Of a stretch of 64,000 nt of DNA, positions 20,574-60,172 are shown one piece after another. Numbering within the stretch: the first letter of the stretch is position 1; each line of letters opens with the position of its first letter. The translations under genes were made by a program, and so were the position numbers. The notes below the pieces were generated by a model. That model was given only the letters and a program-made list of their open reading frames with translations, did no database searches and had not been told where the DNA came from. Source of the stretch: a virus (taxonomy: Duplodnaviria > Heunggongvirae > Uroviricota > Caudoviricetes > Demerecviridae); the IMG/VR virus record IMGVR_UViG_2757320985_000001. One strand, written 5' to 3'.

Positions 20574-20580
20574 ATTTTAT

Positions 20581-20799: not shown

Positions 20800-20818
20800 A
20801 TTATTTCCTTAATTTGTT

Positions 20819-20894: not shown

Positions 20895-20899
20895 GAATT

Positions 20900-21184: not shown

Positions 21185-21245
21185 TGATGAGGATTTCTCC
21201 TCATCAATTTATATAAATATTATAACAAGAAATTAAGCATCAAGC
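21185..21245 (-). promoter_or_regulatory. early promoter cassette driving a non-coding leader and a tRNA sub-operon
   Basis: Family member. No ORF downstream, only non-coding RNA and the tRNAs at 20819-20978. Confidence 0.5.
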
Positions 21246-21599
21246 AAGTACATTTTTAGCGATTTCTTGTATTTCCTTAACGTCACTAACGAAAAGGTAA
21301 TCAGAGCTTCCAGAGTGCATACTCTGCATAACCACACCATCCTCTGGTGCATCTTCTTTCAGTGTGATACCTAACCAGAACTCGGCAAAACTAGGTGTTA
21401 CCTCACCTTGACTTGCCTTGAATACATCGGCTTCTGTAATCTCTTGACCAGTGGAGAGTCCCATGTATGGTACGTTCAGATCAATATCTTTGTAGAATTC
21501 AGCTAGATCTTGTTCGAAGTCCCAACCTTTAGAGATAGCGAACTCCATTGTTACATGACCGAAATAGCCTTGAACCTTGCTTGATAATTGCATTTGCAA
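21240..21599 (-). CDS. hypothetical protein, 119 aa
   Basis: ORF track. Confidence 0.5.
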   Translation of the reverse strand: MQMQLSSKVQGYFGHVTMEFAISKGWDFEQDLAEFYKDIDLNVPYMGLSTGQEITEADVFKASQGEVTPSFAEFWLGITLKEDAPEDGVVMQSMHSGSSDYLFVSDVKEIQEIAKNVLA

Positions 21600-21618
21600 T
21601 TCCTTATTTTGAGTTAAT

Positions 21619-21692
21619 TGGTACTCGGTGATAGAATCGAACTATCGCAACCGCCGTGTAAAGACGGGGTTCTCCCATTAAACTAACCGAGC
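21619..21692 (-). tRNA. tRNA-Val (UAC)
   Basis: Acceptor GCTCGGT/ACCGAGT, T-arm GATAG-TTCGATT-CTATC, loop TTTACAC. Confidence 0.55.
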
Positions 21693-21825
21693 AAAAGACG
21701 TCCTATAATATAGGCTTCAACTACAAATTCACAGAAACCTGCTAAAAACATACCTATTGTAAAATCGGCAGAGAATACATAGGAATCTTTTATTTTCTGC
21801 TTCATTAAGTAAAACCAGATAGTCA

Positions 21826-22143
21826 TTAAAATCTCTCCATTCTAAAGCCAATGAAGTAAGGTGCATTACATGGAACATGCTTAAGATCTTTAAGAGTAAT
21901 TTTACGTCCTAAGCGTCGTTCCATACAAGTGAAACATAGAACAATATCTTTGGGCTGCTCTTTTCTTATCTGATCCCAGACCCAATCTTCAACCATACAC
22001 ATTTCATGGTATTGTTCACAGTCTCGACAATAATGACACTGATGTTCTGGTACTTTTTGATTTTTAATACACAGTTCAGTAAAGCGTTTTCCGGCTCTGC
22101 CAGACATTTCTGATATTGTTTCTAGAACTTTGTTAATATTCAT
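21826..22143 (-). CDS. Cys-rich hypothetical protein, 105 aa
   Basis: HQCHYCRDCEQYHEMC ... CFTC motifs (Zn-binding-like). Confidence 0.5.
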   Translation of the reverse strand: MNINKVLETISEMSGRAGKRFTELCIKNQKVPEHQCHYCRDCEQYHEMCMVEDWVWDQIRKEQPKDIVLCFTCMERRLGRKITLKDLKHVPCNAPYFIGFRMERF

Positions 22144-22160
22144 AACAAATTCCTTTAAAT

Positions 22161-22239
22161 TGGTAGACCGCCTGGGACTCGAACCCAGAACCTTCCGGTT
22201 AAAAGCCGGGTGCTGCTAAACCAATTGAGCTAGCGATCT
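22161..22239 (-). tRNA. tRNA-Lys (UUU)
   Basis: T-arm CTGGG-TTCGAGT-CCCAG. Anticodon loop CTTTTAA, identical to enterobacterial tRNA-Lys. Confidence 0.55.
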
Positions 22240-22427
22240 ATTTAATACATGTATACTTCTTTAATAGAGTAAACTTTTAAGTAAGGATGATTAATACCAA
22301 ATTCCGCCATCACTTCGTTTTCATCTTTACCGTAATGGGCTAGTGGATACTTCTTACGATCTTTGCTAGATCGCAGGTCACTTACTTTTAAACGAAATAA
22401 TTTCATTTCGAAATCCTTCTATTAAAT

Positions 22428-22504
22428 TGGAAGCGGGTGCAGGAATCGAACCTACCTCTTTCTAGCTTATGAGACTAGCGATCTCTGCCAGAGATCTAAC
22501 CCGC
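22428..22504 (-). tRNA. tRNA anticodon CAU (Met; 1:72 mismatch, possibly initiator-like)
   Basis: T-arm GTAGG-TTCGATT-CCTGC. Anticodon stem CTAGT/GCTAG with loop CTCATAA. Acceptor GCGGGT/ACCCGC. Confidence 0.45.
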
Positions 22505-22511
22505 AATTGTT

Positions 22512-22588
22512 TGGTCTCCAATGAAGGACTCGAACCTTCAACCCCACCGCCCCAAACGGTGTACTCTAGCCAATTGAGCTAATCGGAG
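22512..22588 (-). tRNA. tRNA-Pro (UGG)
   Basis: Acceptor CTCCGAT/ATTGGAG, T-arm GAAGG-TTCGAGT-CCTTC, anticodon stem CACCG/CGGTG with loop TTTGGGG. Confidence 0.55.
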
Positions 22589-23119
22589 AATATTATCTTT
22601 TTAACCATAGTAAGGATAGACCTAACATGGTGAACCCAGTACCCAGCCCAATACTTTTCTCTATGAAATTGAAGGTATCAGTATTGACTGCTGTAATTAG
22701 TATAGGTATAGACCATACTACCATAAATACTTGAGCTATCTTATATTTCATTTTGCTTTCCTTCTCAACACTTTATAAGATATATTATACAGAGAATTAA
22801 GCGAAATAGCAAATGAGTTTTTAATAAATTTACTTATTGCGTAGGCCACCTCACGCTTCAAACGCTCTGCTGACAAAGAAGTTTGCGAGACTTCTCTTAA
22901 ATGCCAGAATAGACCCGCCGATCTATCGGAACCTACTCAATAAGTAAACTTTCGTTTACTTACACTCCTGCGTTTCCATTGGGCCTCCAAAGAGGTATCC
23001 ACGACCTGTTATTCAGAAGATTTTACCACGTTGAACGGCCGGAACTCCGTGGCTTGTTTACTATCACCTTACGGACGCATAAGTTATTACACGAATGCGC
23101 AGGCTTGGTTTGATAGATT

Positions 23120-23195
23120 TGGTGCGGTCGGAGGGACTCGAACCCTCAACTTCTGGTTGGCAACCAAAAATTATACCTTTTAACTACGAACGCAT
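23120..23195 (-). tRNA. tRNA-Gly (GCC)
   Basis: T-arm GAGGG-TTCGAGT-CCCTC. Acceptor GCGTTCG/CGACCGC (one mismatch). Loop TTGCCAA. Confidence 0.45.
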
Positions 23196-23199
23196 AATA

Positions 23200-23331
23200 A
23201 GTCAATCTAGGCAGGACTTGAACCTGCTATCACTTGTGCGGATTTACGAGAACCATTCTTTCACTCGAATCGAACGAGCTTCTACCCTCGGCAAGCTGGT
23301 GTCCCCTCTCCACCACGCTAGAATGTTTAAT
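23200..23331 (-). pseudogene. tRNA-like remnant(s) with two T-arm-like hairpins (CTCG-TTCGATT-CGAG and GCAGG-TTCAAGT-CCTGC) and no complete cloverleaf
   Basis: Manual fold failed to find acceptor partners. Confidence 0.3.
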
Positions 23332-23409
23332 TGGTACACCTGCTGAGATTCAAACTCAGGATCTTCCGATTAAGAGTCGGTTGCTTTAAATCAACTAAGC
23401 TACAGATGC
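23332..23409 (-). tRNA. tRNA-Lys (CUU)
   Basis: Acceptor GCATCTG/CAGGTGT, T-arm CTGAG-TTTGAAT-CTCAG, loop CTCTTAA. Confidence 0.5.
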
Positions 23410-23949
23410 ATTTATATCTTTATAGGACTTACCAGTCAGTCTTGTATAGCGTTTTCGCAGACCATTATCTGACATGCCCAATTCTCTAGAAGCTCTAGAC
23501 CATGAGTAATTTTTAACCCAGTACTCTATTTGTTCTACAGTAATTTCTTGTGGATTTTGACAGTGCTGTTTGCAGTAACTAGCTCTTTTAGCTATTTCTT
23601 TGTTGCAAATAGGACAGAAATTTTTATCTGAACTTAATCCACGTTCTTCTATAGTTTTGAGAATATGATCAGCTTTACTTCGTACAATCAGATTTTCAAG
23701 AGAGAAATTTAGTTTGTTTGTATCATCATGATCTACTTCTAAGTCAGAACTCAAAGATGGTAGATCTTTGTATACTCTCGCTAATACTCTGTGTAATAGA
23801 AGATGTTTTGATTTTCCATTATGTTGAACAGTAAAGAAAGGATACCCAGAAGTATTAATCTGTATTGAAAGTATACGATTAACTTTAGTACTAAATACTT
23901 CCCCAGTCTCACTTATTAAGTATTCTGGATATTCGGGTATTTCTTTCAT
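23395..23949 (-). CDS. HNH-family homing endonuclease (HNH_3 core with C-terminal HTH)
   Basis: GYPFFTVQHNGKSKHLLLHRVLARVY core. C-terminal WVKNYSWSRASRELGMSDNGLRKRY helix-turn-helix. Embedded in the tRNA array. Confidence 0.7.
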   Translation of the reverse strand: MKEIPEYPEYLISETGEVFSTKVNRILSIQINTSGYPFFTVQHNGKSKHLLLHRVLARVYKDLPSLSSDLEVDHDDTNKLNFSLENLIVRSKADHILKTIEERGLSSDKNFCPICNKEIAKRASYCKQHCQNPQEITVEQIEYWVKNYSWSRASRELGMSDNGLRKRYTRLTGKSYKDINASVA

Positions 23950-23966
23950 TACTGTTCCTTATAATT

Positions 23967-24043
23967 TGGCGCGACCGATGGGATTCGAACCCACATTCTC
24001 TCCCGTGACAGGGGAGTACCATTACCAAGCCAGCCCCGATCGC
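23967..24043 (-). tRNA. tRNA-Asp (GUC)
   Basis: Acceptor GCGATCG/CGGTCGC, T-arm GTGGG-TTCGAAT-CCCAT, anticodon stem CTCCC/GGGAG with loop CTGTCAC. Confidence 0.6.
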
Positions 24044-24052
24044 ATAATTTAT

Positions 24053-24238
24053 TTACTCAGCTTTGAGTTTTTCGATAGCTTCCTCAACCTCTTTTAGAGC
24101 TTCACGATAACGATTCAAGTTATGTAGTTCTTCCAGAAGATCAGCCTTCTGAGTTTCTACCCAACGTTCACGAACCTTAATGTTGTTTTTAATATTATCA
24201 CGATCAGCTTCTAGTCGAGCAATTGCATGAGTTGTCAC
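24053..24238 (-). CDS. coiled-coil small protein, 61 aa
   Basis: ORF track. Confidence 0.4.
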   Translation of the reverse strand: MTTHAIARLEADRDNIKNNIKVRERWVETQKADLLEELHNLNRYREALKEVEEAIEKLKAE

Positions 24239-24265
24239 ATCTATTTCCTCAGTTATTAATGAAAT

Positions 24266-24348
24266 TGGCGGGCCGTGTAGGATTCGAACCTACGTTGTCT
24301 TTCAACATGGATTAACAGTCCACCGCCAAACCGCTTGGCTAACGACCC
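24266..24348 (-). tRNA. tRNA, 83 nt, anticodon loop CTGTTAA (GUU, Asn-type) but with a 13-14-nt extra arm
   Basis: Acceptor GGGTCGT/ACGGCCC, T-arm GTAGG-TTCGAAT-CCTAC, anticodon stem GTGGA/TCCAT. Variable hairpin GTTG-AAAGA-CAAC. Confidence 0.5.
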
Positions 24349-24355
24349 TAAAATT

Positions 24356-24431
24356 TGGACGACCGCATGAGATTCGAACTCACATAAGGAGGTTTTGCAG
24401 GCCTCCGCCTAAGCCATTCAGCCAACGGTCG
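24356..24431 (-). tRNA. tRNA-Cys (GCA)
   Basis: Acceptor CGACCGT/GCGGTCG, discriminator U. Loop CTGCAAA. Confidence 0.55.
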
Positions 24432-24609
24432 ATTTATCTTGTTTTTCGAGATCAACGAACTCTAAATCGTTGAAGTCTCCTAGAGTACGGGAGTAATAAC
24501 CGTCTCCAGCATCATAGCCTGATTTACCACACTTACACATCTTAAACTCACGTAGACGTGTAAAGATATGTTCAGAACCACAACACTTAAATTTAACTAA
24601 CTTTTTCAT
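24418..24609 (-). CDS. Zn-ribbon small protein, 63 aa
   Basis: KCCGSEH ... CKCGK cysteines. 3' end overlaps the tRNA-Cys 5' region by a few nt. Confidence 0.4.
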   Translation of the reverse strand: MKKLVKFKCCGSEHIFTRLREFKMCKCGKSGYDAGDGYYSRTLGDFNDLEFVDLEKQDKSTVG

Positions 24610-24848
24610 TTAACACGCTCCGGTAAATCTTCTAGTTTATATTGAGTAGCCACATTAGCAGCATCTAATAATAAACCCATGTGTTTAAGAATCCTAGTGA
24701 TAGCCTCGCCTTCTGCTTCTTCTACAAAGCAACGTAGATTAACGAAGTCAATACCACCATCCATACCAGAGAAAATGTTTAGTAAGCGAAGCATTACCAG
24801 CTTACGTTCTTTCAATTCTTGTTCTGTCATGTTGCTTCTCCAGTTCAA
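24606..24848 (-). CDS. hypothetical protein, 80 aa
   Basis: ORF downstream of the promoter cassette at about 24845-24900. Confidence 0.5.
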   Translation of the reverse strand: MNWRSNMTEQELKERKLVMLRLLNIFSGMDGGIDFVNLRCFVEEAEGEAITRILKHMGLLLDAANVATQYKLEDLPERVK

Positions 24849-24880
24849 TTTATGTAATAATTATACAGAACTTTAAGCGG

Positions 24881-25168
24881 TTAAGCAACTACATTTTTCA
24901 GAAATATGATGCCTTTCTTTTTCTTCTTATATTTCCACGTTAACGGGTTCTGTCGATTATGAACGCTTGAGATCTTTGTCTCGTCAAAGTTCTTCAATAC
25001 CATGTAATCACAGGCCAACTGTTCTAGTGGGATGTGATCTCCGTCAAAAGCATAAACATAAGGCTGTTGACTAGCACGATAATGATAGACTTTGTTAATT
25101 CTGCGTTTCAGTGACTTATCCGCACAGTAAATAAAGAAGTTTTCAGGATGCATCAGCATCTCCTTCAA
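24881..25168 (-). CDS. hypothetical protein, 95 aa
   Basis: ORF track. Confidence 0.45.
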   Translation of the reverse strand: MKEMLMHPENFFIYCADKSLKRRINKVYHYRASQQPYVYAFDGDHIPLEQLACDYMVLKNFDETKISSVHNRQNPLTWKYKKKKKGIIFLKNVVA

Positions 25169-25170
25169 AT

Positions 25171-25245
25171 TGGTGCACCCCGTTGGTAACGATCCAACCT
25201 CTCAAGCTCTTCAGGCAAGCGCTAATCCATCTCAGCTAAAGGTGC
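25171..25245 (-). tRNA. tRNA-like gene with a non-canonical T-loop (ATCGTTA) and an irregular anticodon arm
   Basis: Acceptor GCACCTT/GGGGTGC, discriminator A, CCA encoded, D-stem GCTG/TAGC. The anticodon stem only forms 4 bp, with loop GCCTGAA. Confidence 0.35.
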
Positions 25246-25251
25246 AAATAT

Positions 25252-25327
25252 TGGCAAACCTACTAGGACTCGAACCTAGACCGTACGGTTTTGGAGACCG
25301 ACATGCTGTCCAGTAACACTCTAGGAA
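25252..25327 (-). tRNA. tRNA-Trp (CCA), acceptor stem imperfect
   Basis: T-arm CTAGG-TTCGAGT-CCTAG. Anticodon loop CTCCAAA, identical to E. coli tRNA-Trp. Discriminator G. The acceptor 5' strand could not be paired cleanly. Confidence 0.4.
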
Positions 25328-25336
25328 TGCAGAAAT

Positions 25337-25413
25337 TGGCGTCCTGTGCGGGGATCGAACCCGCAAATCCTACCTTGAAAGGGTAGTGACTTTACCAGTT
25401 TGTCTAACAGGAC
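25337..25413 (-). tRNA. tRNA-Glu (UUC)
   Basis: Perfect acceptor GTCCTGT/ACAGGAC, T-arm GCGGG-TTCGATC-CCCGC, anticodon stem CTACC/GGTAG with loop CTTTCAA. Confidence 0.65.
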
Positions 25414-25423
25414 TTAAATTTGA

Positions 25424-25511
25424 TGTTGGATGATGGAGTCGAACCACCCGAGACCCTTCCGAGTCGGCAGATTTACAGTCTGCTTCGCTACCTCTACGAT
25501 ACTAATCCAAC
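25424..25511 (-). tRNA. tRNA-Tyr (GUA), class II
   Basis: 88 nt. Perfect acceptor GTTGGAT/ATCCAAC. Anticodon stem GCAGA/TCTGC with loop CTGTAAA. Long variable arm. CCA not encoded. Confidence 0.6.
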
Positions 25512-25637
25512 ATATTTGAATGAAAAGTAAGTCGGTTAAACTCAAGGTGGAATATTTCAGGAAATCCTGACTTTACCCCTAAAAGCAACTCGCTTAGTTA
25601 CTTCTCATTCAGATATGTTTTCCAAATTAGATAACTA

Positions 25638-25675
25638 TTATATCAAGTTTTGCAGGACTGAGCAAGTCAAATTTT
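25638..25675 (-). promoter_or_regulatory. candidate tRNA-operon promoter (TTGCTC-17-TATAAT)
   Basis: Minus-strand reading: GACTTGCTCagtcctgcaaaacttgaTATAAT, upstream of tRNA-Tyr/Glu/Trp. Confidence 0.4.
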
Positions 25676-25701
25676 AAAGAACTTGCTCAGTGCTATATCA
25701 G

Positions 25702-25977
25702 TTACTCGAAGCTAGGAGTGACACTCAGTTTGAATGGAAGCTCGAACACTTCTTCATAATCATCATTGAGCGTAATTACACGACCTTCTAGCTTAGTCAT
25801 GGTGATTTCGATATCAGCCTTTGCATCAGGAGCCATACCAGCTTCCACACATTTAGCTTTAACTTCCGGCAGAAGTTCTACATCGTAGAAATAAAGCCAT
25901 TCAATCTCACCTTCCCAGCCACCCCAGGATTTACAAACAGCACTTTCAACACCAGTTGCAGTAACACGTTTTGACAT
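25702..25977 (-). CDS. hypothetical protein, 91 aa
   Basis: ORF downstream of the promoter cassette at about 25980-26040. Confidence 0.5.
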   Translation of the reverse strand: MSKRVTATGVESAVCKSWGGWEGEIEWLYFYDVELLPEVKAKCVEAGMAPDAKADIEITMTKLEGRVITLNDDYEEVFELPFKLSVTPSFE

Positions 25978-26067
25978 TCGTTAACTCCTTCATCAATTTA
26001 TATAACTATTATAGCAGAAATCTTAAGTAAAAAGCAAGTACATTTTTAAAATTTCTGCTTGGAGGAG

Positions 26068-26274
26068 TTAAACTCCTGATTCTTCTGCCAGATCAAGCCC
26101 AACCAATGTGATTGCCATAATAGCCGCGCCATGTTCTTTCTCTCCTAGCTCTTTGGCTTGAGTGAGAATATTTAGGAACTGCTTTTGAAAATCTGCAACT
26201 TCTTCTGTCATGCCTGCTTCAGCAATAATTCCTTTCAGCATAAAGCGTTGTGCCGTAATTTCAGGATTAGCCAT
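26068..26274 (-). CDS. hypothetical protein, 68 aa
   Basis: ORF track. Confidence 0.45.
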   Translation of the reverse strand: MANPEITAQRFMLKGIIAEAGMTEEVADFQKQFLNILTQAKELGEKEHGAAIMAITLVGLDLAEESGV

Positions 26275-26425
26275 TTATTATCTCCAGTTATTTAGAATGT
26301 AAGCCAAACTTAGGATCATAGCGATCGTAAGTCGTACCATTAGTTGAAGCCTTGATGTTATGAAAACGACAGTACATAAATTTACGTAGTGCTTTCTTAA
26401 TAGCTTTCATTTTATTTCCTTAATT

Positions 26426-26502
26426 TGGTAGGGGTGGTGGGATTCGAACCCACAAAACCTGAATTTTAAGTCCAGTACCTATGCCAATTCGATTACACCC
26501 CC
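26426..26502 (-). tRNA. tRNA, 77 nt, anticodon UAA (Leu-type) but class-I architecture
   Basis: Acceptor GGGGGTG/CACCCCT, discriminator A, T-arm GTGGG-TTCGAAT-CCCAC. Anticodon stem CTGGA/TTCAG with loop CTTAAAA. 5-nt variable loop. Confidence 0.5.
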
Positions 26503-26594
26503 ATGTAATCAGTTTATCAGTTGATATAAGTTGTAGCCCAGCGAAAATCCTACTACTAGCCCTACAAACCAACCAATATAATAATCTTTTAGTT

Positions 26595-26942
26595 TCATAG
26601 TTCATAACCCTGAATGTATCGAGCAAAACCAGTAATTTCAAACTGAATTGCCCAAACTACTTCCATATGTTCAATCTTCTCAAACCGAGCATCAGATTGC
26701 TCTAGGAAATAACGAGAGATTGTAGGAAATTCAATGTCGAAATCTTCCTTATCCATGCCATAGTAGAACTTTTCAGGAATATTACGAACTTCACGGAAGA
26801 AATCCTCGATCTGAAAATCCATTAGAGGATGTGTAACTTCCTCTTTGCTATCATCCGTCTGGAAGAAGCGGAAATGCACAAGGCAAGAGCCAATCAGGTT
26901 TATTGCTGGTGTAGTATAGATATCCATCTTAGCCTCGCTCAA
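26595..26942 (-). CDS. hypothetical protein, 115 aa
   Basis: ORF track. Confidence 0.5.
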   Translation of the reverse strand: MSEAKMDIYTTPAINLIGSCLVHFRFFQTDDSKEEVTHPLMDFQIEDFFREVRNIPEKFYYGMDKEDFDIEFPTISRYFLEQSDARFEKIEHMEVVWAIQFEITGFARYIQGYEL

Positions 26943-27114
26943 TATCTAGAGAAATACCACATTTAGGATTAATACCAGAACCATTACAATGTGTACAAAC
27001 GTATGTATTATACCATGTATCCCCGGGTTCAGCATCGTTCCATTCACCTGCTCCAAAGCATTTTGGACAGGCACACTCTTCTAGTTCCTGCTTCATTTCA
27101 TAGAATCTAGACAT
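26929..27114 (-). CDS. Zn-ribbon small protein, 61 aa
   Basis: CPKC ... CTHC motifs. Confidence 0.45.
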   Translation of the reverse strand: MSRFYEMKQELEECACPKCFGAGEWNDAEPGDTWYNTYVCTHCNGSGINPKCGISLDIERG

Positions 27115-27131
27115 ATAGTATCCTAGTTAAT

Positions 27132-27209
27132 TGGTGGCTCCCGGAGGATTCGAACCTACCTACCTTTCGCTTATGAGGCGACGGCTCATACCAAATGAGC
27201 TTGAGAACC
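27132..27209 (-). tRNA. tRNA anticodon CAU (third CAU tRNA; Met or Ile2)
   Basis: Acceptor GGTTCTC/GGGAGCC, T-arm GTAGG-TTCGAAT-CCTCC, loop CTCATAA. Confidence 0.5.
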
Positions 27210-27214
27210 AAATT

Positions 27215-27308
27215 TGGAGGAAGATGCCAGATTCGAACTGGCACACCGTGTCTCCACAGCTACTGGCTGTTTAGCAAACAGCTCCCTTACCTTTAGGGTT
27301 AATCTTCC
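27215..27308 (-). tRNA. tRNA-Ser (GCU), class II
   Basis: 94 nt. Perfect acceptor GGAAGAT/ATCTTCC, T-arm GCCAG-TTCGAAT-CTGGC, anticodon stem GCTGT/ACAGC with loop TTGCTAA. Long variable arm. Confidence 0.65.
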
Positions 27309-27359: not shown

Positions 27360-27674
27360 TTACTGAACATTGCACTGATATACTTGTTTGATACGTGTCA
27401 CTGACTTCTTAGTTGGGTTGATAGAAGAACCCTGCCACCAACGTGATTCTGAGCTGAGAACAGCCCCAGGAACAGCTTGTTCTTTTGGCAGAACAATATC
27501 AAAACACTGTTCACCCATATTATCTTTAATGTGCGACCAAATGTCTAGAGTAAATCGTTCTAGCTTATTACAAACTTGAACTTGACAAAGTTCCTGTTGT
27601 GGAGCAGCAAATACAGAAGTAGATACTAGAGTCAATGCAAGTACAATGCGTTTCATGTTTGATTCCTCTCTCAA
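27360..27674 (-). CDS. secreted hypothetical protein, 104 aa
   Basis: Signal peptide (LALTLVSTSVFAAP) and 4 Cys. Promoter cassette lies upstream at about 27660-27725. Confidence 0.5.
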   Translation of the reverse strand: MREESNMKRIVLALTLVSTSVFAAPQQELCQVQVCNKLERFTLDIWSHIKDNMGEQCFDIVLPKEQAVPGAVLSSESRWWQGSSINPTKKSVTRIKQVYQCNVQ

Positions 27675-27725
27675 ATTTATAAATATATTATACAGAAATT
27701 TTCTATATAAAGCAAGTGAAAATTT
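27666..27725 (-). promoter_or_regulatory. early promoter cassette
   Basis: TTGCTT at 27710-27715 (RC), TGTATAAT at 27687-27694 (RC), GAGAGG leader. Confidence 0.6.
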
Positions 27726-27762
27726 CTGTATAATAGCCCTCGCTTAGAGGGCTATAACTACT

Positions 27763-28455
27763 TTATTTGTTAACTCTTACAAAGTAGCCTTTATAGGCTC
27801 CCATAATAGAGTTACCTAAGAACACCAGCCACATTGCTAGGATTGCATAGGAAGCACCCGTAGATTGGGCAGTTACAAGCCAAATGTACACAGTGCCAAT
27901 GTTAATAGCAATCCAGATCAGCCACTGTTCAGCGTACTGCTTAACCATAAGCCACATAGCAATCACACTACCGACCGCAGTAAATGCATCCAACATTGGG
28001 AATGGATCAGCTGTGGTAGCAAGGAAGCTGCCGTAACCTAAAGTAGCTACTGCTAGAACCCCTAGAGTCAGCAAAGCTTGAGCTTTGGTCAGAATCTTAG
28101 TTGGAACATCTGGCAGATTACTTGGCTTATTTTTATGCCATAAGTACATTCCATAAAACTGCATAGGAACGTAGTATAGTAGGTTTAGTGCAGCGTTACC
28201 ATAAAGATCTGCGTTTAAAGCTGTAATACCATATGTAAGAACACCCACTAAGCCCCAAATATAGTTGGAAACACGTCCTTTTGCAACCAGAATAACACAA
28301 ACCACATTGGTTATTGCAGTAGCCCAATCTAGAGCTGTACCATTATAGTTTGCTAAACTAATAAAGGCGACTGCTATAAACAGCCACAGATATTCCAAAG
28401 GTTTCCAGTTTTTAAAGTCATTTACAAGATAGTTAGTCATATTAAAACTCTCCAA
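27763..28455 (-). CDS. pnuC: nicotinamide riboside transporter PnuC
   Basis: 230-aa polytopic membrane protein with PnuC-like helices. Lies immediately downstream of the NadR-like gene and overlaps its end. Confidence 0.65.
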   Translation of the reverse strand: MESFNMTNYLVNDFKNWKPLEYLWLFIAVAFISLANYNGTALDWATAITNVVCVILVAKGRVSNYIWGLVGVLTYGITALNADLYGNAALNLLYYVPMQFYGMYLWHKNKPSNLPDVPTKILTKAQALLTLGVLAVATLGYGSFLATTADPFPMLDAFTAVGSVIAMWLMVKQYAEQWLIWIAINIGTVYIWLVTAQSTGASYAILAMWLVFLGNSIMGAYKGYFVRVNK

Positions 28456-29548
28456 CGTTAAAGTGATGAATCAGCCAGTCTACTGCGTTTACTGCTTCGT
28501 CCATACGAACTTTGTAGTCCGGGGAGTCGATGTAAACAGTACGCCCTTCAGGGAACTGATTTGGAAATTCTTTCTTCATCTGCTCGAACAGTTCAGAAGT
28601 AATTGAACGATCGGAGTTAATACGTAAACCATCATCTACCCACTTAACAGTAGGCGCTAGAACAATTACTAAATCGTAATGTTCTTCTTTTGCAATTGCT
28701 GTAACCACAGGATTCTTACGATGTTCATAAAGTCTGTGGTAGAACTCAGTAATAAAAGCATTTGTATCCACAAACATGATCTTATTTGCAGTACGTTCTG
28801 CTTCAAACTCTAGCTCTTTGTGTCTGAACGCAATTTTACTATAATCTTCACTGGTAAGCAGATTTTCGTTACCAACTAGATCAACTTCACAATACGTTCG
28901 GCCATATTCTTCTACCCACGAAGTGTTGTATAGCTTCGCAAGGTATTTTGTTAAAGTAGTCTTTCCCGAGCTTTCAGTCCCAATGATTACAACCTTACGC
29001 ACGTAATCTTTACGAACTACGCTAGGAAGAAACTCCCAATACTTCATAAGATCATTACGAATCATTGTAGCTGAGATTGGAACACGAGTACGATCAGAAT
29101 CTACAATATAATGACCAAACTTCGGCAGATATTTCTTATATTCTGCATCATAGTCTAGTTCGCTAGAGAAAATGGTGATCTCAGGCAAATGTCCGTAATT
29201 TTCATTAAGGATTCTAGCATATTCCGGCCAACCATTCGGATATTCAGGAATATCATCTTCAATAATGTACTCTACCGAAACGTGCTCAATATCCGCGTAA
29301 GTTTGTTCTAACCAACGAAGTCGATTCTTTAACTGTAATACTTCCTGATCACGTGTGTTCTGCTTATCCAGCCAACGATTATCATGACTAACTACAACAA
29401 TAACTCGTTCACACATAGTTGCTGCTGTGTTTATTAGGTTAATATGACCACGCGTTAATGGTGCGAACTTACCAATTACTAGACCAGTCTTAATCATATT
29501 TGATTCCTCTCTCAAATTTATAAATATATTATACAGAGAATTTAGCAT
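28442..29548 (-). CDS. nadR: bifunctional NMN adenylyltransferase / ribosylnicotinamide kinase (NadR-like, no HTH)
   Basis: N-terminal nucleotidyltransferase with GKFAPLTRGH (HxGH-type motif). C-terminal P-loop kinase (GTESSGKTTL). Confidence 0.7.
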   Translation of the reverse strand: MLNSLYNIFINLREESNMIKTGLVIGKFAPLTRGHINLINTAATMCERVIVVVSHDNRWLDKQNTRDQEVLQLKNRLRWLEQTYADIEHVSVEYIIEDDIPEYPNGWPEYARILNENYGHLPEITIFSSELDYDAEYKKYLPKFGHYIVDSDRTRVPISATMIRNDLMKYWEFLPSVVRKDYVRKVVIIGTESSGKTTLTKYLAKLYNTSWVEEYGRTYCEVDLVGNENLLTSEDYSKIAFRHKELEFEAERTANKIMFVDTNAFITEFYHRLYEHRKNPVVTAIAKEEHYDLVIVLAPTVKWVDDGLRINSDRSITSELFEQMKKEFPNQFPEGRTVYIDSPDYKVRMDEAVNAVDWLIHHFNVGEF

Positions 29549-29570
29549 TCAAGCAATCGAATTTTTAAAC

Positions 29571-29701: not shown

Positions 29702-29762
29702 ATATGTTATGGATGAGTGATCAAAGAGACACACATTTTCTATATACTAGGAGGTGTCAAAA

Positions 29763-30749
29763 ATGACAGATGAAGTAACTAAGAAACCTGAGACCGTAAG
29801 TGAAGTCGCAGCAGAACTGAGACGTCATGAGGAATCAGACAAACATAAGTGGGAGAAGGTCAAAGCCTACGAAAAAGAACATCGTGAACACGATGAAGAT
29901 GATGAAGAAGATGACGATGATGAACATTGTCATAAACATGGAAAACATAAAATGCAAGAACCAGTAAACGTATTCACTAGTGGCTTCCCTGGCCTAATGG
30001 GTGGTTACCCAGCAGTTGCTAACGGTGCTTTCGGTGGTGAAGGTATGGGTCTATTCGGAGCTATCTTAATCGGTGCTCTATTAACAGGCGGATTCGGTGG
30101 TTTCGGTGGTTTTGGCCGCGGTGCTGGTGTTGCCGCTGAGGGAACTGCTGTGGACGCGATCCTTTCTAACCAGGATACTGCAAGTATTCTAGCTGCAATT
30201 AACACTGCTCGTACTGAAGCGAATCAAGGTACTGGTGCTGTTCTGAGCGCTGTTAATGGTGTAGGTGCTGCTCAAGCTTCTAGTACTCAACAGATTCTGA
30301 CTACTGTGTATGGTACTGGTGCTAACCTGTCCAACCAGATCTGTCAGGAGACTCGTAACGTTATTCAGGGTCAGTTTGATCTTTCTCGCCAGATGGATCA
30401 AGCTTTCGCTGCTAACCAGATCGCTCGTGCACAAGACAAGTTTGACTCTGCTCAGATTGCTTTCCAGCAGTCTCTTCAGACCAATAACCAGTTTGCCGCT
30501 GTTCAGGCTCAGATGTGCGCTAACCAGAACGCTATCGAACGTCAGCTTGCTGAGTGCTGCTGTGAACTTCAGACTGCGATCGCTGGTGTAACTACTGCGC
30601 GTATCCAGGACGAACTGAACGAATGCCGTCTGCGTGAAGCAATCGCTGCAGGTAGCGGTGCAAATGGTCAGGTAATCAACCAAATCGCTGTAAGCCTGGG
30701 TGCAATTACTCAGACTCTAGCAGCTCTACAGGCTAAAGTACCAGCCTAA
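29763..30749 (+). CDS. Gly/Ala/Gln-rich protein with an acidic/His N-terminus and a GFGG hydrophobic segment
   Basis: ATG at 29763 with an AGGAGG RBS (the ORF-track start at 29754 is GTG). Host-like codon usage. Function unknown. Confidence 0.6.
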   Translation: MTDEVTKKPETVSEVAAELRRHEESDKHKWEKVKAYEKEHREHDEDDEEDDDDEHCHKHGKHKMQEPVNVFTSGFPGLMGGYPAVANGAFGGEGMGLFGAILIGALLTGGFGGFGGFGRGAGVAAEGTAVDAILSNQDTASILAAINTARTEANQGTGAVLSAVNGVGAAQASSTQQILTTVYGTGANLSNQICQETRNVIQGQFDLSRQMDQAFAANQIARAQDKFDSAQIAFQQSLQTNNQFAAVQAQMCANQNAIERQLAECCCELQTAIAGVTTARIQDELNECRLREAIAAGSGANGQVINQIAVSLGAITQTLAALQAKVPA

Positions 30750-30771
30750 TCTTTAAGGGGAGGAGCCCATT

Positions 30772-31200
30772 ATGAGTAAATATGGTTTTGTGAACAACGG
30801 ATTTAATCAACCAATGGGCTCCCAGCAGCCCATTCCGGGTCTGGATAACCCCTACTTACAACAGTTGCAACAGCGTTTAGCAGAAGCGCAACAGATGCAG
30901 CAGCAACTTCAGCAAAACCCTGGAAGTGTGAGCCCTATGCAAATGATGCAGCAAATGAGTGGGCAGTCGCAAATGCCTCAACAAATGCCTCAACAAATGC
31001 AGCAACAGGTGCCACAGCAGCAAGTTCAGCAACAAACCCAACAACCGCAGGTATCTGCGGAAGGACAGGCAGTACTAGCCCTTTTCGAAGACTTCGCAAA
31101 GACAGAGGACGGGAAACAGCTTGTATCACTTATGGGTAAGTTTAATAGCTTCTGCCAAAGCCAAGTTGCAAAAGCTCAAAATGGTGGTAATAACTCCTAA
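30772..31200 (+). CDS. Q-rich (prion-like) low-complexity protein, 142 aa
   Basis: QQMPQQMPQQMQQQVPQQQVQQQTQQPQ tract. GGAGG RBS. Confidence 0.55.
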   Translation: MSKYGFVNNGFNQPMGSQQPIPGLDNPYLQQLQQRLAEAQQMQQQLQQNPGSVSPMQMMQQMSGQSQMPQQMPQQMQQQVPQQQVQQQTQQPQVSAEGQAVLALFEDFAKTEDGKQLVSLMGKFNSFCQSQVAKAQNGGNNS

Positions 31201-32702: not shown

Positions 32703-32777
32703 TGGCCGAGGTGACAGGATTCGAACCTGCATAAAGGAATTTAGAAGACTCCTGCCTATCCCTTAGACTACACCCCG
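32703..32777 (-). tRNA. tRNA-Arg (UCU)
   Basis: Acceptor CGGGGTG/CACCTCG, T-arm GCAGG-TTCGAAT-CCTGT, anticodon stem GGAGT/ATTCC with loop CTTCTAA. Confidence 0.55.
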
Positions 32778-36444: not shown

Positions 36445-36514
36445 AATTATTTTCCTTTTGTTGTTCTCTCAAATTTATGAATATATTATACAGAATTTTG
36501 GAGCTGAAAGCAAA

Positions 36515-49418: not shown

Positions 49419-49581
49419 TTTAGAAAATATGCTTATGGAGCAGTGGAATGCTGGGTATAATGCTGGAGTAGCTACCTGTATTGCTGGTTTGGATATGCTT
49501 ATTAAGCAAGAGAAGGTTCGCCCAGAAGAAGCAATTCTGCTCCAAAATATCATCGAAGGATTCAAGCAAGGAATCGTATAA
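49386..49581 (+). CDS. hypothetical protein, 65 aa (ATG with GGAGGA RBS; trimmed from ORF 49303-49581)
   Basis: RBS-supported internal start. Confidence 0.4.
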
Positions 49582-50432
49582 TGCGTAGACTAATCGTTGT
49601 TAGTGGTGCAGGTTTGAGTGTAGATAGTGGTGTTCGTGCTTTCCGTACTGATACTGCTAGTGGGAAATCCTTGTGGGATGAGTACGATCTAGAGGAAGTA
49701 TGTAGCTTGCCTAACTTTGAAGCTGGCTTCCGTCGCTTCTGTGGTGAAGATGATCCTAACTACTTCAGTGCTCGTTTCCCTGGCATTGATAAAGATGGTA
49801 ACGATCTGTATCTCAAGACTCATGAGTTCTACAACATGCGTCGTCAGGAATTACAGACTGTTGAGCCTAACATTGCCCATCTGCGAATTGCAGAATGGTT
49901 CCAGCGTTATGGTGCGGATAGCGTGAAGAACTTCACTACTAACGTTGATGACCTTCTGGAACGTGCTGGTATCCCTCGTGATGAAATCATTCACGCTCAC
50001 GGGTACTTGAAAGAGGTGATCTATCGTCGGGGTCGCAATCAAATCATCGAAGATGTTGGATACACTGCAATTGTTCCTGAAGATTACGAATGGATAAAAC
50101 CAAACGTGGTGTTCTTTGGTGAGACAGCTCCGTGGTACATGGGTCAAATCAACCTGTTTGATACTCTTAATAGCAATGACATGGTTATTGTGGTGGGTTG
50201 TAGCAACCAAGTTATCAACTTCAACTGGGAATTATTTCCTGCTGTATGTCGTGGAACTAAGATGATGGTTGTTAATCCTCAAGTTCGTTATGATGAACAG
50301 CTTGAGTATGAGAAACGTGGTGTTACTGTATGGAGGGTTGGAGCTGCCGAAGTTTTTGGTAATAAGCATTTCATTGGTCAAGTTGAAGCTTTTATGGAAG
50401 GAGCTATTTATGTCCCCGAAAAGACATCCTGA
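49581..50432 (+). CDS. Sir2-family (sirtuin-like) NAD-binding protein
   Basis: GAGLSVDSGVRAFR Rossmann start. PNxxH present. No obvious CxxC Zn module. Confidence 0.6.
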   Translation: MRRLIVVSGAGLSVDSGVRAFRTDTASGKSLWDEYDLEEVCSLPNFEAGFRRFCGEDDPNYFSARFPGIDKDGNDLYLKTHEFYNMRRQELQTVEPNIAHLRIAEWFQRYGADSVKNFTTNVDDLLERAGIPRDEIIHAHGYLKEVIYRRGRNQIIEDVGYTAIVPEDYEWIKPNVVFFGETAPWYMGQINLFDTLNSNDMVIVVGCSNQVINFNWELFPAVCRGTKMMVVNPQVRYDEQLEYEKRGVTVWRVGAAEVFGNKHFIGQVEAFMEGAIYVPEKTS

Positions 50433-58007: not shown

Positions 58008-58226
58008 TTGATGAGAGGATCAATTATGGCAATGACAATAACACTTCCAAAGATTCAAGCAAAACTTAATTTACTCTCCGTAGCAAGAATCAATTACCAA
58101 GATAGTATCGGCACTCCAAACCAGAAAGCGTACAAAGATGCGTGGTTGAAAGAAGCTGCTGATTTAGCTGGTATGGCTGCTCAGTATAACAAAGAACTCA
58201 AAATGGAAATCGCAGACGATGAATAA
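58008..58226 (+). CDS. hypothetical protein, 72 aa
   Basis: Promoter cassette at about 57960-58010. Overlaps the ligA start. Confidence 0.45.
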   Translation: MMRGSIMAMTITLPKIQAKLNLLSVARINYQDSIGTPNQKAYKDAWLKEAADLAGMAAQYNKELKMEIADDE

Positions 58227-59190
58227 TGTAAAAGACTTTATCAAACGTTGTCAAGAAGCGTACTACCAGGGAATGAGTCTTATTTCCGATGAAGAATATG
58301 ATCGTCTGATTAAAAGATTCCCGCTAGAGGAAGAAATCGGACCGAAAGGTGATATCCCTCATTTGTATCGTATGTATTCTTTGCAGAAAGTCTATTACGG
58401 TCGTGGTGATAAAGCTCCGTTCAATCCACTTGGTCAGGTTGAAACTGATAAGTTAGATGGTTGTGCGATTTCCCTATTATATATTAATGGTGAGTTTGTT
58501 CAAGCATTAACTCGTGGTAACGGTATTCTAGGGAATGATGTAACGCATAATGTTAAAATGCTGAACATCCCTAAAACTATTTCCCAAAAAGTTCCAACTC
58601 AAATCACTGGTGAAGTTCTCATTACTAAAGAAGTAGAGAACAAACGTAACTACGCTTCGGGTGCTATTAACCTGAAAGACAGCGATGATTTCATGCAACG
58701 TATTGGTGAAGGTGGTTTAATCTTCGTTGCATATGGTATCCAGTGTTCAGCGGAAACAGTCGGTATTACAGAAGCCTATTTAAAAGATATGCTTTGGCTA
58801 GAGAATGAGAACTTCTTGACAGTTGTTAATGTTCGTTCCTTCTTTAAGTGGATTCCGACGGATGGTAAAGTTGTTCGTATTAATGATAACAACAAATTCT
58901 TCCGTGAAGGTTGGACTAATAAATTTCCTCGTGGTGCATTTGCTATTAAAGAGGATGAAGAAGGCGAAATTACCACACTTGTTAAAGTTGAATGGCAAGT
59001 AGGGGCTTCTGGTAAAGTAACTCCAGTTGGTTATTTCGAACCGGTGATTATTGATGATGCCACAATCGTTAAAGCAACTCTTAATAACGTTGATTATATT
59101 AACGCTCTCGATTTAGAGATCGGTTGCCAGATTCGAGTGATTCGTGCTGGTGGTGTAATCCCTTGTATAGTAGAGCGAGTATACGACTAA
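58219..59190 (+). CDS. ligA: NAD-dependent DNA ligase, subunit A (adenylation + OB domains)
   Basis: LigA Ia/adenylation domain with the K-x-D-G lysine motif (KLDGCA) and OB fold. Stops before the Zn finger. Confidence 0.8.
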   Translation: MNNVKDFIKRCQEAYYQGMSLISDEEYDRLIKRFPLEEEIGPKGDIPHLYRMYSLQKVYYGRGDKAPFNPLGQVETDKLDGCAISLLYINGEFVQALTRGNGILGNDVTHNVKMLNIPKTISQKVPTQITGEVLITKEVENKRNYASGAINLKDSDDFMQRIGEGGLIFVAYGIQCSAETVGITEAYLKDMLWLENENFLTVVNVRSFFKWIPTDGKVVRINDNNKFFREGWTNKFPRGAFAIKEDEEGEITTLVKVEWQVGASGKVTPVGYFEPVIIDDATIVKATLNNVDYINALDLEIGCQIRVIRAGGVIPCIVERVYD

Positions 59191-59240
59191 TTCGTAACCC
59201 TTTGCTACCCGTTTACCATGTCGGAATTATAAAGTGGTTA

Positions 59241-59269
59241 TTGACATTTTCGCCGCTTAGGTATATACT
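59241..59269 (+). promoter_or_regulatory. sigma70-consensus promoter TTGACA-17-TATACT inside the ligase split
   Basis: TTGACAttttcgccgcttaggtaTATACT. The -35 context is shared with the 29673 promoter. Confidence 0.5.
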
Positions 59270-59389
59270 ATTATCATTCAGTTGAGGGATAGAAAGTTAT
59301 GGCGAGGGTAAGCAAAGTTAGTTAAAATTGTAGTTGCTAAATGCTTAAATACTTGCTATAATATTTATATAAATTGATAAGGAAGAAAT

Positions 59390-60172
59390 TTGATGAAAAT
59401 CGAAATTCCAACACAATGCCCCTCTTGTGGTTCTAAGCTAGATCTTGTCAACGGGCAATTATTCTGTAGGAATAAGTCCAACTGTCCAGCGCAATCAAGT
59501 AAGTTAATCGAGAACTTCTGCACAAAAATGAAGTTAAAGGGCTTTGGCCCGAAAACTATTGAGAAGCTGGAGCTGACTAAGATCTCAGAACTGTTTTACC
59601 TGACCGAAGAAGATTTGGTCGGAGCTGTGGGTAGCAAGGTTGCCGCTAAATTGATTAGCGAGTTAAATACTAAGGTTCGCGGAGACACTGACTTTGGTTC
59701 AGTTCTCGGTTCTTTAGGAATTACTCTTATTGGAGAGGTTGCAGCAAAGAAACTGTCCCAAAATTGCACTAGCTTCCACGATGTGAAGGCTGACGGCAAG
59801 GCTGGAGAAAATTACAAAACCTGGCTAAATTCCCCACAAGGCAAGGATGTTATTGAATTACCATGGAAATTCTCAACAGGTATTCGAGGTGCTAAAGCAG
59901 ATATAATCATTACAGATGATTTAGTTGCCCAGCCAAATGGAATCACGGTCTGTATTACCGGATCTTTGCAAGATTTTGCAAATAGAACGGATGCAACAAA
60001 CTATTTAGAAAGTCTAGGATATACGGTTAAGAAGTCCGTTACCAAAGACGTCAAATACCTAATCTGTGAGGATGAATCAAAACGTTCTTCCTCATCTTAT
60101 AAGAAAGCCGAAACGAATGGGATAGAAATCCTGTCGATTAAAGAACTATTGGAGAAAAATAATAATGTCTAA
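59390..60172 (+). CDS. ligB: NAD-dependent DNA ligase, subunit B (Zn finger, HhH, BRCT)
   Basis: CPSCGS...C Zn finger, helix-hairpin-helix region and C-terminal BRCT-like domain. Continues the LigA architecture. Confidence 0.75.
   Translation: MMKIEIPTQCPSCGSKLDLVNGQLFCRNKSNCPAQSSKLIENFCTKMKLKGFGPKTIEKLELTKISELFYLTEEDLVGAVGSKVAAKLISELNTKVRGDTDFGSVLGSLGITLIGEVAAKKLSQNCTSFHDVKADGKAGENYKTWLNSPQGKDVIELPWKFSTGIRGAKADIIITDDLVAQPNGITVCITGSLQDFANRTDATNYLESLGYTVKKSVTKDVKYLICEDESKRSSSSYKKAETNGIEILSIKELLEKNNNV

What the first reader, a model, noticed from the sequence alone, without database searches (positions are those of the whole stretch)
27763..29548. PnuC-NadR nicotinamide-riboside salvage pair, plus Sir2-family protein and NAD-dependent ligase elsewhere: a phage NAD+ economy module
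The NadR-like enzyme has NMNAT (HxGH-type) and P-loop riboside-kinase domains but no HTH. PnuC is translationally coupled immediately downstream. Importing NR and converting it to NAD+ would supply the split NAD-dependent ligase (58219-60172). It could also replenish NAD+ depleted by abortive-infection systems such as Thoeris, DSR or SIR2/TIR-type defences.

The Sir2-family ORF at 49581-50432 could be a deacylase, an ADP-ribosyltransferase, or an NAD-consuming effector or decoy.
Basis: partly seen in the sequence, partly recalled or inferred. Interest (0 to 1): 0.7.

Follow-up and report, generated by a model that had tools for sequence, protein, structure and literature searches.

The report
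Known phage NAD+ rebuilding operon (NARP3)
This is a two-gene phage operon that imports nicotinamide riboside and turns it into NAD+. It is 99% identical to the published NARP3 counter-defence system, so it is real but already known.

Summary
The window is 100% identical to the T5-like Salmonella phages 100268_sal2 and 118970_sal2 (Epseptimavirus). On the minus strand it carries a NadR-like enzyme (28442-29497, 351 aa) with NMN adenylyltransferase and ribosylnicotinamide kinase domains and no HTH. One base after its stop codon a PnuC transporter begins (27763-28440, 225 aa).

The ATG at 29548 lies inside the promoter.

The two proteins are 349/351 and 222/225 identical to Bas30_86 and Bas30_87 of phage TrudiRoth. 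That pair was published in August 2026 as NARP3. It was shown to import NR, convert NR to NMN to NAD+, and restore NAD+ and phage plating against Sir2-HerA and DSR1. Every residue mutated in that work is conserved here.

The Sir2-family protein and the split NAD-type ligase are real. Both also occur in T5, where the 20-70 kb stretch examined lacks the cassette. They are core genes, not part of one module.

One possibly new side lead came up. A small secreted four-cysteine protein (27360-27656) lies beside NadR-PnuC in three unrelated phage lineages.

The parts
29505..29556 (-). Early-type sigma-70 promoter and leader of the operon. It comprises the -35 box TTGCTT (29556-29551), a 17-nt spacer, the extended -10 box TGTATAAT (29535-29528) and the Shine-Dalgarno sequence GAGAGAGGA (29513-29505).
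   Evidence: Sequence read. The 31-nt -10/leader/SD cassette occurs four times in the window, where none is expected by chance. From my own memory, it resembles T5 promoter PN25. The copy at 55731-55761 sits upstream of the gene corresponding to T5 D2, where the T5 record annotates 'promoter P-N 25'.
28442..29497 (-). NadR-like bifunctional enzyme, 351 aa. The NMN adenylyltransferase domain carries TRGH at 15-18 and ISATMIR at 141-147. The ribosylnicotinamide kinase domain carries the Walker A motif GTESSGKT at 173-180. There is no HTH domain. It is the orthologue of Bas30_86.
   Evidence: Family matches. PDB 9X6F/9X6H: E = 5.5e-241. 349/351 identical to Bas30_0086, differing only by V73I and R260S. 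All 17 residues named in the NARP3 paper are conserved.
27763..28440 (-). PnuC-type nicotinamide riboside transporter, 225 aa. It is the orthologue of Bas30_87. Its start codon lies one base after the NadR stop codon (TAA-T-ATG), with GGAG 9 nt upstream.
   Evidence: Family matches. Neisseria mucosa PnuC (4QTN): E = 4e-32. 222/225 identical to Bas30_0087. The NR-binding residues N45, Q94 and N180 are conserved at the same numbering.
27733..27755 (-). Nine-base-pair GC-rich hairpin (AUAGCCCUC-UAAGC-GAGGGCUAU) starting 8 nt after the PnuC stop codon. It is the probable terminator of the two-gene transcript.
   Evidence: Fold (z = -3.0 for the 76-nt stretch). The records of the related phages Sw2 and Stitch list a 'terminator' feature within the matched 2.5-kb stretch.
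27360..27715 (-). Downstream gene ORF84 with its own promoter. The promoter has the -35 box TTGCTT (27715-27710) and an exact copy of the NadR -10/leader/SD cassette (27664-27694). The CDS is 27360-27656 and encodes 98 aa: a signal peptide followed by a small domain with four invariant cysteines (C24, C29, C51, C95). It is a possible accessory partner of the operon, not a proven part.
   Evidence: promoter copy. PHROG 6894 with no known function. Alignments. Neighbourhood tests.
49581..50432 (+). Sir2-family protein, 283 aa, elsewhere in the genome. It is not part of the operon. GAGLS (9-13), N121/D123 and H140 are kept. The sirtuin zinc-ribbon cysteines are absent.
   Evidence: PF02146, 79 bits. 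Aligns to E. coli CobB (1S5P), E = 1e-16. Cysteines occur only at 41, 54, 207 and 223. The homologue T5.102 is present in T5.
58219..60172 (+). Split LigA-type (NAD+) DNA ligase, not part of the operon. Piece A (58219-59190) has the adenylation domain, with KxDG at K78, and the OB fold. Piece B (59393-60172) has a BRCT domain and a weak HhH match below Pfam's cut-off.
   Evidence: Pfam. PDB 9HU3 'DNA ligase (NAD(+))': E = 2e-106. 96% identical to T5 ligA/ligB.

Best explanation
This is a NARP3 operon, the third described phage NAD+ reconstitution pathway.

Proposed mechanism:
1. A strong early-type promoter drives one bicistronic transcript.
2. The second gene product, a PnuC-type inner-membrane transporter, lets nicotinamide riboside into the infected cell.
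3. The first gene product, a NadR-like enzyme without the repressor HTH domain, phosphorylates NR to NMN in its kinase domain.
4. The same enzyme then adenylates NMN to NAD+ in its NMNAT domain, using ATP at each step.
5. This keeps the NAD+/NADH pool up when host NADase defences (Sir2-HerA, DSR1 and probably others) try to starve the phage.

What is shown, by published experiments on proteins 99% identical to these: NR binding by the transporter, both enzymatic steps, two crystal structures, restoration of NAD+ and a 10^3-10^4-fold plating rescue.

What is inferred here: that this phage's copies behave the same, that they are expressed early from the promoter I describe, that the two genes are translationally coupled, and that the pathway matters during native infection.
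For: - Identity of the window with a T5-like Salmonella phage whose record already annotates both genes.
- Profile matches above curated cut-offs.
- 349/351 and 222/225 identity to Bas30_86 and Bas30_87.
- E = 5.5e-241 to PDB 9X6F/9X6H.
- All functionally tested residues conserved: NadR K10, F11, S37, E80, P84, G89, F110, S112, D115, V139, I141, K163, D164, R167, K168, E230 and D275; PnuC N45, Q94 and N180.
- Published biochemistry and defence rescue (PMC13464706).
- Earlier prediction of the same operon in BASEL phages (bioRxiv 10.1101/2024.02.11.579819).
- Self-contained operon anatomy: promoter, two SD sequences, a TAA-T-ATG junction and a terminator hairpin.
- NadR and PnuC lie within 6 kb on the same strand in 46 of 49 NadR-like loci from viral contigs.
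Against: - Nothing in the sequence argues against it.
- No one has tested the system in its native phage.
- The published rescue assays included NR-dependent rescue (a Methods heading), so the benefit in natural NR-poor settings is unknown.
- TIGR01526 scores below its equivalog cut-off (272 against 341 bits). The enzyme is a diverged NadR, not a textbook one.
Confidence: 0.9

Rival explanations
1. The operon is mainly a housekeeping metabolic booster, not a counter-defence device. It would top up NAD+ for the phage's own NAD+-consuming or NAD(P)-dependent enzymes during a large burst. These include the split LigA-type ligase, the Sir2-family protein, and the NAD(P)H-dependent nucleotide-synthesis enzymes such as dihydrofolate reductase. 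Defence evasion would be a side benefit.
For: The window encodes a LigA-type ligase, a Sir2-family protein, ribonucleotide reductases and dihydrofolate reductase. The operon uses the same early promoter cassette as other early genes.
Against: T5 has the same ligase (96% identical), a Sir2 homologue and the nucleotide-metabolism genes, yet no NadR or PnuC in the 20-70 kb stretch examined. Those enzymes therefore do not appear to need the operon. The measured phenotype of the orthologous cassette is rescue from NADase defences.
Confidence: 0.2
2. The module has a third, periplasmic member. The neighbouring small secreted four-cysteine protein (27360-27656) would help obtain or deliver NR, or would block a periplasmic host activity that competes for it. 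The published two-gene description would then be incomplete.
For: - Its promoter carries an exact copy of the NadR -10/leader/SD cassette.
- Homologues sit beside NadR-PnuC in three unrelated phage lineages, with differing gene order.
- Within T5-like phages it appears to be gained and lost together with the operon. T5 (20-70 kb) has none of the three genes. About 196 records hold ORF84 at 80% identity or more, against about 207 for NadR.
- It is 55-67% identical across lineages in which NadR is only about 36% identical.
Against: - The two genes alone suffice in E. coli.
- Only 9 of 49 viral NadR-like loci have it nearby.
- About half of the sampled family members are not next to NadR-PnuC.
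- It has no Pfam match and no fold match.
Confidence: 0.2
3. The transporter carries another substrate, as some PnuC relatives carry other vitamins, and the kinase domain acts on something other than NR.
For: From general knowledge, the Pnu family includes transporters for other vitamins.
Against: The near-identical Bas30_87 binds NR with a Kd of about 0.66 uM. Mutating N45, Q94 or N180 abolishes binding and function. The near-identical Bas30_86 converts NR to NMN to NAD+ in vitro.
Confidence: 0.02

Closest known systems
NARP3 of Escherichia phage TrudiRoth (Bas30_86/Bas30_87; Yan et al., Sci Adv 2026, PMC13464706; PDB 9X6F, 9X6H)
   Same: Same genus (Epseptimavirus), same two-gene order and junction, and the same flanking genes (a Band_7 protein upstream, ORF84 and tRNA-Ser downstream). 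Identity is 349/351 and 222/225. All mutated functional residues are conserved.
   Different: Five conservative substitutions: NadR V73I and R260S; PnuC A25V, I116V and V128I. The window also carries two plus-strand genes (homologues of T5.077 and T5.078, 29754-31200) between the operon and the Band_7 gene. TrudiRoth lacks them.
Bacterial NadR plus PnuC (Haemophilus influenzae NadR, PDB 1LW7; Neisseria mucosa PnuC, PDB 4QTN; E. coli/Salmonella NadR)
   Same: The same NMNAT plus ribosylnicotinamide kinase architecture and the same transporter fold family. E = 5e-55 to 1LW7 and 4e-32 to 4QTN.
   Different: There is no HTH repressor domain, so there is no transcriptional role. In the phage the genes are fused into one operon, whereas in E. 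coli they lie at separate loci. The first histidine of HxGH is a threonine (TRGH).
NARP1 (Adps + Namat) and NARP2 (Nampt + Nmnat) phage NAD+ reconstitution pathways (Osterman et al., bioRxiv 10.1101/2024.02.11.579819)
   Same: The same purpose: rebuilding NAD+ so that NADase defences fail.
   Different: The substrates and enzymes differ. NARP1 uses ADP-ribose plus nicotinamide. NARP2 uses nicotinamide plus PRPP. NARP3 imports NR from outside the cell, so it needs a transporter and an external supply.

Membership tests
NARP3 (phage NadR-like + PnuC-like NAD+ reconstitution operon) | Two adjacent same-strand genes, with the NadR-like enzyme immediately upstream of the PnuC-like transporter | tested here: met
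   28442-29497 and 27763-28440, both on the minus strand, with a TAA-T-ATG junction.
NARP3 (phage NadR-like + PnuC-like NAD+ reconstitution operon) | Enzyme has NMNAT and ribosylnicotinamide kinase domains and lacks the HTH domain | tested here: met
   The NF005988 match starts at profile position 54 of 411. Pfam gives CTP_transf_like plus AAA_28.
NARP3 (phage NadR-like + PnuC-like NAD+ reconstitution operon) | Residues shown by mutagenesis to be needed (enzyme sites 1 and 2; transporter N45, Q94, N180) | tested here: met
   All 20 residues are conserved at the same numbering.
NARP3 (phage NadR-like + PnuC-like NAD+ reconstitution operon) | NR import, NR to NMN to NAD+ activity, and rescue from NADase defences | not testable with these tools
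   Shown for the 99%-identical TrudiRoth proteins. Not tested for this phage, and not tested in any native phage.
PnuC transporter family (PF04973 / TIGR01528) | Profile score above the curated cut-off | tested here: met
   PF04973: 147.6 bits against 27.3. TIGR01528: 120.8 bits against 42.45.
Trifunctional NadR (regulator + NMNAT + RNK; NF005988, TIGR01526) | N-terminal HTH DNA-binding domain | tested here: not met
   The first ~53 profile positions are unmatched, and the protein starts directly with the NMNAT domain. It works like the enzymatic part of NadR but is not a regulator.
Trifunctional NadR (regulator + NMNAT + RNK; NF005988, TIGR01526) | Score above the equivalog cut-offs | tested here: inconclusive
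   NF005988: 260 bits, above its cut-off of 201. TIGR01526: 272 bits, below its cut-off of 341.
Sirtuin / Sir2 family (PF02146), for ORF 49581-50432 | Rossmann NAD-binding motif GAGxS, the N-x-D motif and the catalytic His | tested here: met
   GAGLS at 9-13, N121/D123 and H140 align with those of CobB.
Sirtuin / Sir2 family (PF02146), for ORF 49581-50432 | Four-cysteine zinc ribbon of canonical deacylases | tested here: not met
   There are no cysteines between residues 54 and 207. The CobB zinc-ribbon stretch aligns to a region without cysteines.
LigA-type NAD+-dependent DNA ligase (split), for 58219-60172 | Adenylation domain with KxDG, OB fold, HhH and BRCT | tested here: met
   Adenylation domain, OB fold and BRCT score above Pfam's cut-offs. 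HhH is only a weak match (17.9 bits against a cut-off of 27). The domains are divided over two ORFs. KLDG is at K78. E = 2e-106 to PDB 9HU3 'DNA ligase (NAD(+))'.
LigA-type NAD+-dependent DNA ligase (split), for 58219-60172 | Domain Ia residues that bind the NMN moiety, which determine use of NAD+ rather than ATP | tested here: inconclusive
   By eye, residues 15-30 (YYQGMSLISDEEYDRL) resemble the E. coli LigA Y22/H23/D32/Y35/D36 motif, with H replaced by Q. That comparison rests on my memory of the E. coli sequence. No profile hit for domain Ia was returned.

The most novel reading that the evidence does not exclude
The phage NR-salvage system may have an optional third component that the NARP3 paper did not consider. 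This is a small secreted protein of about 80 mature residues with two predicted disulfides (27360-27656). It is kept next to NadR-PnuC in T5-like phages, in 355-371 kb jumbo phages and in ~146 kb phages. It is much better conserved than the enzyme itself. It could work in the periplasm to capture or generate nicotinamide riboside, or to block a host activity that competes for it.
Probability: 0.2. Interest if true: 0.5.

Novelty: already known. Interest (0 to 1): 0.15.

Why it matters
NAD+ depletion is one of the commonest ways bacteria abort phage infection, and NAD+ rebuilding is the matching phage answer. This locus is one more copy of the third such pathway, so it adds no new biology.

Two points remain useful:
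- About 200 sequenced T5-like phages carry it, many of them Salmonella biocontrol candidates. It has never been tested in its native phage.
- The conserved secreted neighbour might explain how these phages obtain NR in nature.

Tried and rejected
- **Ligase structure 9HU3/9I5I.** A literature search for these entries found nothing. A search on a two-subunit T5 ligase returned no relevant paper.
- **Phage Sir2 function.** A literature search for the function of the T5-like phage Sir2 returned no functional study among the 12 listed papers, judged by title and abstract.
- **Second 'Sir2' gene.** The RefSeq record labels a second gene (50728-51243) as Sir2, which would have strengthened the 'NAD economy' idea. 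I rejected this label. The protein is a HAD_SAK_2 phosphatase-type domain, and the name comes from a mislabelled PHROG.
- **Sir2, ligase and the operon as one co-inherited module.** Rejected, because T5 has the first two without the operon in the stretch examined.
- **First local tblastn.** It returned nothing because several loci are stored inside one file. I repeated it correctly.
- **T5 coverage.** Only T5 positions 20000-69999 were fetched. Absence of NadR, PnuC and ORF84 is shown for that stretch, which includes the syntenic site, not for the whole T5 genome.

Full report
**What is there**

The window is 100% identical over the tested 2.5 kb to Salmonella phages 100268_sal2 and 118970_sal2. 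These are Demerecviridae of the genus Epseptimavirus, that is, T5-like phages. The finding lies at the edge of the large tRNA gene array: 29 tRNA genes were found, 28 of them between 17.8 and 27.3 kb.

Two minus-strand ORFs occupy the stated coordinates.

The upstream ORF matches:
- NadR (NF005988): 260 bits against a cut-off of 201, covering profile positions 54-407 of 411.
- TIGR01526: E = 7e-81.
- Pfam CTP_transf_like and AAA_28.
- PHROG 3462, 'nicotinamide-nucleotide adenylyltransferase': E = 1e-153.

The downstream ORF matches:
- PnuC (PF04973): E = 5e-43.
- TIGR01528: 121 bits against a cut-off of 42.
- PHROG 1880: E = 2e-74.

**Gene boundaries and operon anatomy**

On the minus strand, upstream of NadR, the sequence reads TTGCTT, a 17-nt spacer, TGTATAAT, then ...GAGAGAGGAATCAAAT-ATG.

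- The real start is the ATG at 29497. This is the start used in the RefSeq record and in phage TrudiRoth.
- The 31-nt -10/leader/SD cassette occurs four times in the window, where none is expected by chance. Two copies are exact: one before NadR and one before the next gene downstream.
- From memory, the cassette resembles T5 early promoter PN25. The copy at 55731-55761 lies where the T5 record annotates 'promoter P-N 25'.
- PnuC most likely starts at the ATG at 28440, one base after the NadR stop codon (TAA-T-ATG), with GGAG 9 nt upstream. With this start, the residue numbering of the published mutants fits exactly.
- Eight nucleotides after the PnuC stop codon there is a 9-bp GC-rich hairpin at 27733-27755. 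Related records list a terminator feature within the matched stretch.

The pair is thus a self-contained bicistronic early operon.

**What it is**

The enzyme is 349/351 identical to Bas30_0086, and the transporter is 222/225 identical to Bas30_0087, both of Escherichia phage TrudiRoth. The enzyme matches PDB 9X6F/9X6H with E = 5.5e-241.

Yan et al. published these two proteins in August 2026 as NARP3, 'NAD+ reconstitution pathway 3' (PMC13464706). They reported the following:
- The transporter is a trimer that binds NR with a Kd of about 0.66 uM. N45A, Q94A and N180A abolish binding and function.
- The enzyme binds NR and NAD+ tightly. In vitro it converts NR to NMN, with ADP formed, and NMN plus ATP to NAD+.
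- Mutations in the kinase site (E230A, D275A) or in the NMNAT site (K10, F11, S37, E80, P84, G89, F110, S112, D115, V139, I141) reduce NAD+ regeneration.
- Co-expression of both genes, but neither alone, restores NAD+ and NADH in E. coli carrying Sir2-HerA. It raises plating of T7 and lambda by 10^3-10^4-fold. It also counteracts DSR1.

Every one of these residues is conserved in the window at the same position. The five differences from TrudiRoth are conservative and lie outside the reported sites: NadR V73I and R260S; PnuC A25V, I116V and V128I.

Osterman et al. had already pointed to the same operon in BASEL phages in 2024 as a likely further pathway. Iyer et al. catalogued NadR among phage NAD+ synthesis domains in 2022.

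**Distribution**

- About 200 phage records carry the complete pair at DNA level: 203 records cover at least 80% of the query.
- 792 phage records encode a NadR-like protein, and 207 of them are at 80% identity or more.
- Among 49 NadR-like loci from viral contigs, 46 have a PnuC homologue within 6 kb on the same strand. Two of the three exceptions are cut by a contig end.

**The other claims**

*Sir2.* The ORF at 49581-50432 is a Sir2-family protein (PF02146, 79 bits).
- It keeps GAGLS, N121/D123 and the catalytic H140 when aligned to CobB.
- It has no cysteines where sirtuins carry their zinc ribbon.
- Its activity cannot be decided from sequence.

*A second 'Sir2'.* The gene labelled Sir2 in RefSeq at 50728-51243 is not a Sir2. 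It is a HAD_SAK_2 domain.

*Split ligase.* It is confirmed. Piece A has the adenylation domain (KLDG at K78) and the OB fold. Piece B has a BRCT domain and a weak HhH match below Pfam's cut-off. Piece A matches a solved 'DNA ligase (NAD(+))' with E = 2e-106.

*T5 comparison.* In the 20-70 kb stretch examined, T5 has:
- ligA and ligB, 96% identical to the window's pieces;
- the HAD gene, 91% identical;
- a Sir2 homologue, only 51.5% identical;
- no NadR, PnuC or ORF84.

At the syntenic site T5 carries T5.076 instead. The ligase and Sir2 are therefore core T5-group genes, and the NR-salvage operon is an accessory cassette. They may share a cofactor, but they are not one inherited module.

**Side lead**

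The gene just downstream of the operon (27360-27656; bas30_0088 in TrudiRoth) encodes 98 aa. It has a signal peptide (MKRIVLALTLVSTSVFA) and four invariant cysteines. Its promoter carries an exact copy of the NadR -10/leader/SD cassette.

The family has no Pfam domain. It has 75 clusters in the large protein collection, nearly all unnamed, from metagenomes or phages. Its members are 55-67% identical across phage groups in which NadR is only about 36% identical.

Homologues lie next to NadR-PnuC in two further lineages:
- Jumbo phages of 355-371 kb, namely Erwinia pEa_SNUABM_44, Serratia BF-type phages and Xanthomonas XbC2, in the order ORF84-(0-1 gene)-NadR-PnuC.
- Phages of about 146 kb.

I rate a functional link to NR salvage at about 0.2.

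**Verdict**

- The locus is an already published system in an already annotated phage, so interest is low.
- What remains open is the behaviour of the operon in its native phage, the role of the Sir2-family protein, and whether the secreted neighbour takes part.

Noticed in passing
window 27360-27656 (-), with its promoter up to 27715: A small secreted protein with four invariant cysteines (PHROG 6894, function unknown). Its promoter carries an exact copy of the NadR -10/leader/SD cassette. Homologues sit beside NadR-PnuC in three unrelated phage lineages. They are far better conserved (55-67% identity) than NadR (~36%). No Pfam or fold match was found.
   Followed up: yes
window 50728-51243 (+): RefSeq names this gene 'Sir2 (NAD-dependent deacetylase)', as it does T5.105. 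It is in fact a HAD_SAK_2 phosphatase-type domain (PF18143, E = 8e-18). The name appears to come from a mislabelled PHROG (18062). It lies 300 bp downstream of the true Sir2 gene, with two small ORFs between them.
   Followed up: partly
window 49581-50432 (+) compared with L005 36448-37266: The Sir2-family protein is only 51.5% identical to its T5 counterpart (T5.102). The neighbouring HAD gene is 91% identical and the ligase pieces are 96% identical. The gene is either evolving fast or has been replaced. It also lacks the sirtuin zinc-ribbon cysteines.
   Followed up: partly
window 29754-31200 (+): Two divergently transcribed genes lie in a patch of 48% GC, against about 39-40% in the neighbouring stretches. 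One encodes 331 aa with an acidic, His-rich N-terminus, a Gly-rich hydrophobic stretch and a Gln/Ala-rich tail. The other encodes 142 aa and is Gln-rich. They are homologues of T5.077 and T5.078 (77% and 87% identical). TrudiRoth lacks them, with only 263 bp separating the Band_7 gene from NadR. Function is unknown (PHROGs 8119 and 7894).
   Followed up: partly
window 27664-27694, 29505-29535, 36462-36492 (-) and 55731-55761 (+): A 31-nt extended -10/leader/Shine-Dalgarno cassette (TGTATAATATATTTATAAATTTGAGAGAGGA) is repeated four times: twice exactly, and once each with 2 and 3 mismatches. None is expected by chance. It looks like the T5 PN25-type early promoter and leader.
   Followed up: partly
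window 17798-27308 and 32703-32777 (-): There are 29 tRNA genes, all on the minus strand, interspersed with many very short ORFs. This is typical of the T5-group tRNA region. The NadR-PnuC operon sits at its boundary, next to tRNA-Ser(GCT) and tRNA-Met.
   Followed up: no
database records MG065642.1 and others: Records named 'Campylobacter phage A148' and two 'Listeria' phage records match this T5-like Salmonella/Escherichia phage segment. A148 is 98% identical. The host labels are probably wrong, or the samples were mixed.
   Followed up: no
L023 784-1710 (Xanthomonas phage XbC2): In this jumbo phage an ADP-ribosylglycohydrolase gene (PF03747) lies about 4 kb upstream of the ORF84-NadR-PnuC block. 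This is another NAD/ADP-ribose-related gene in the same neighbourhood.
   Followed up: no
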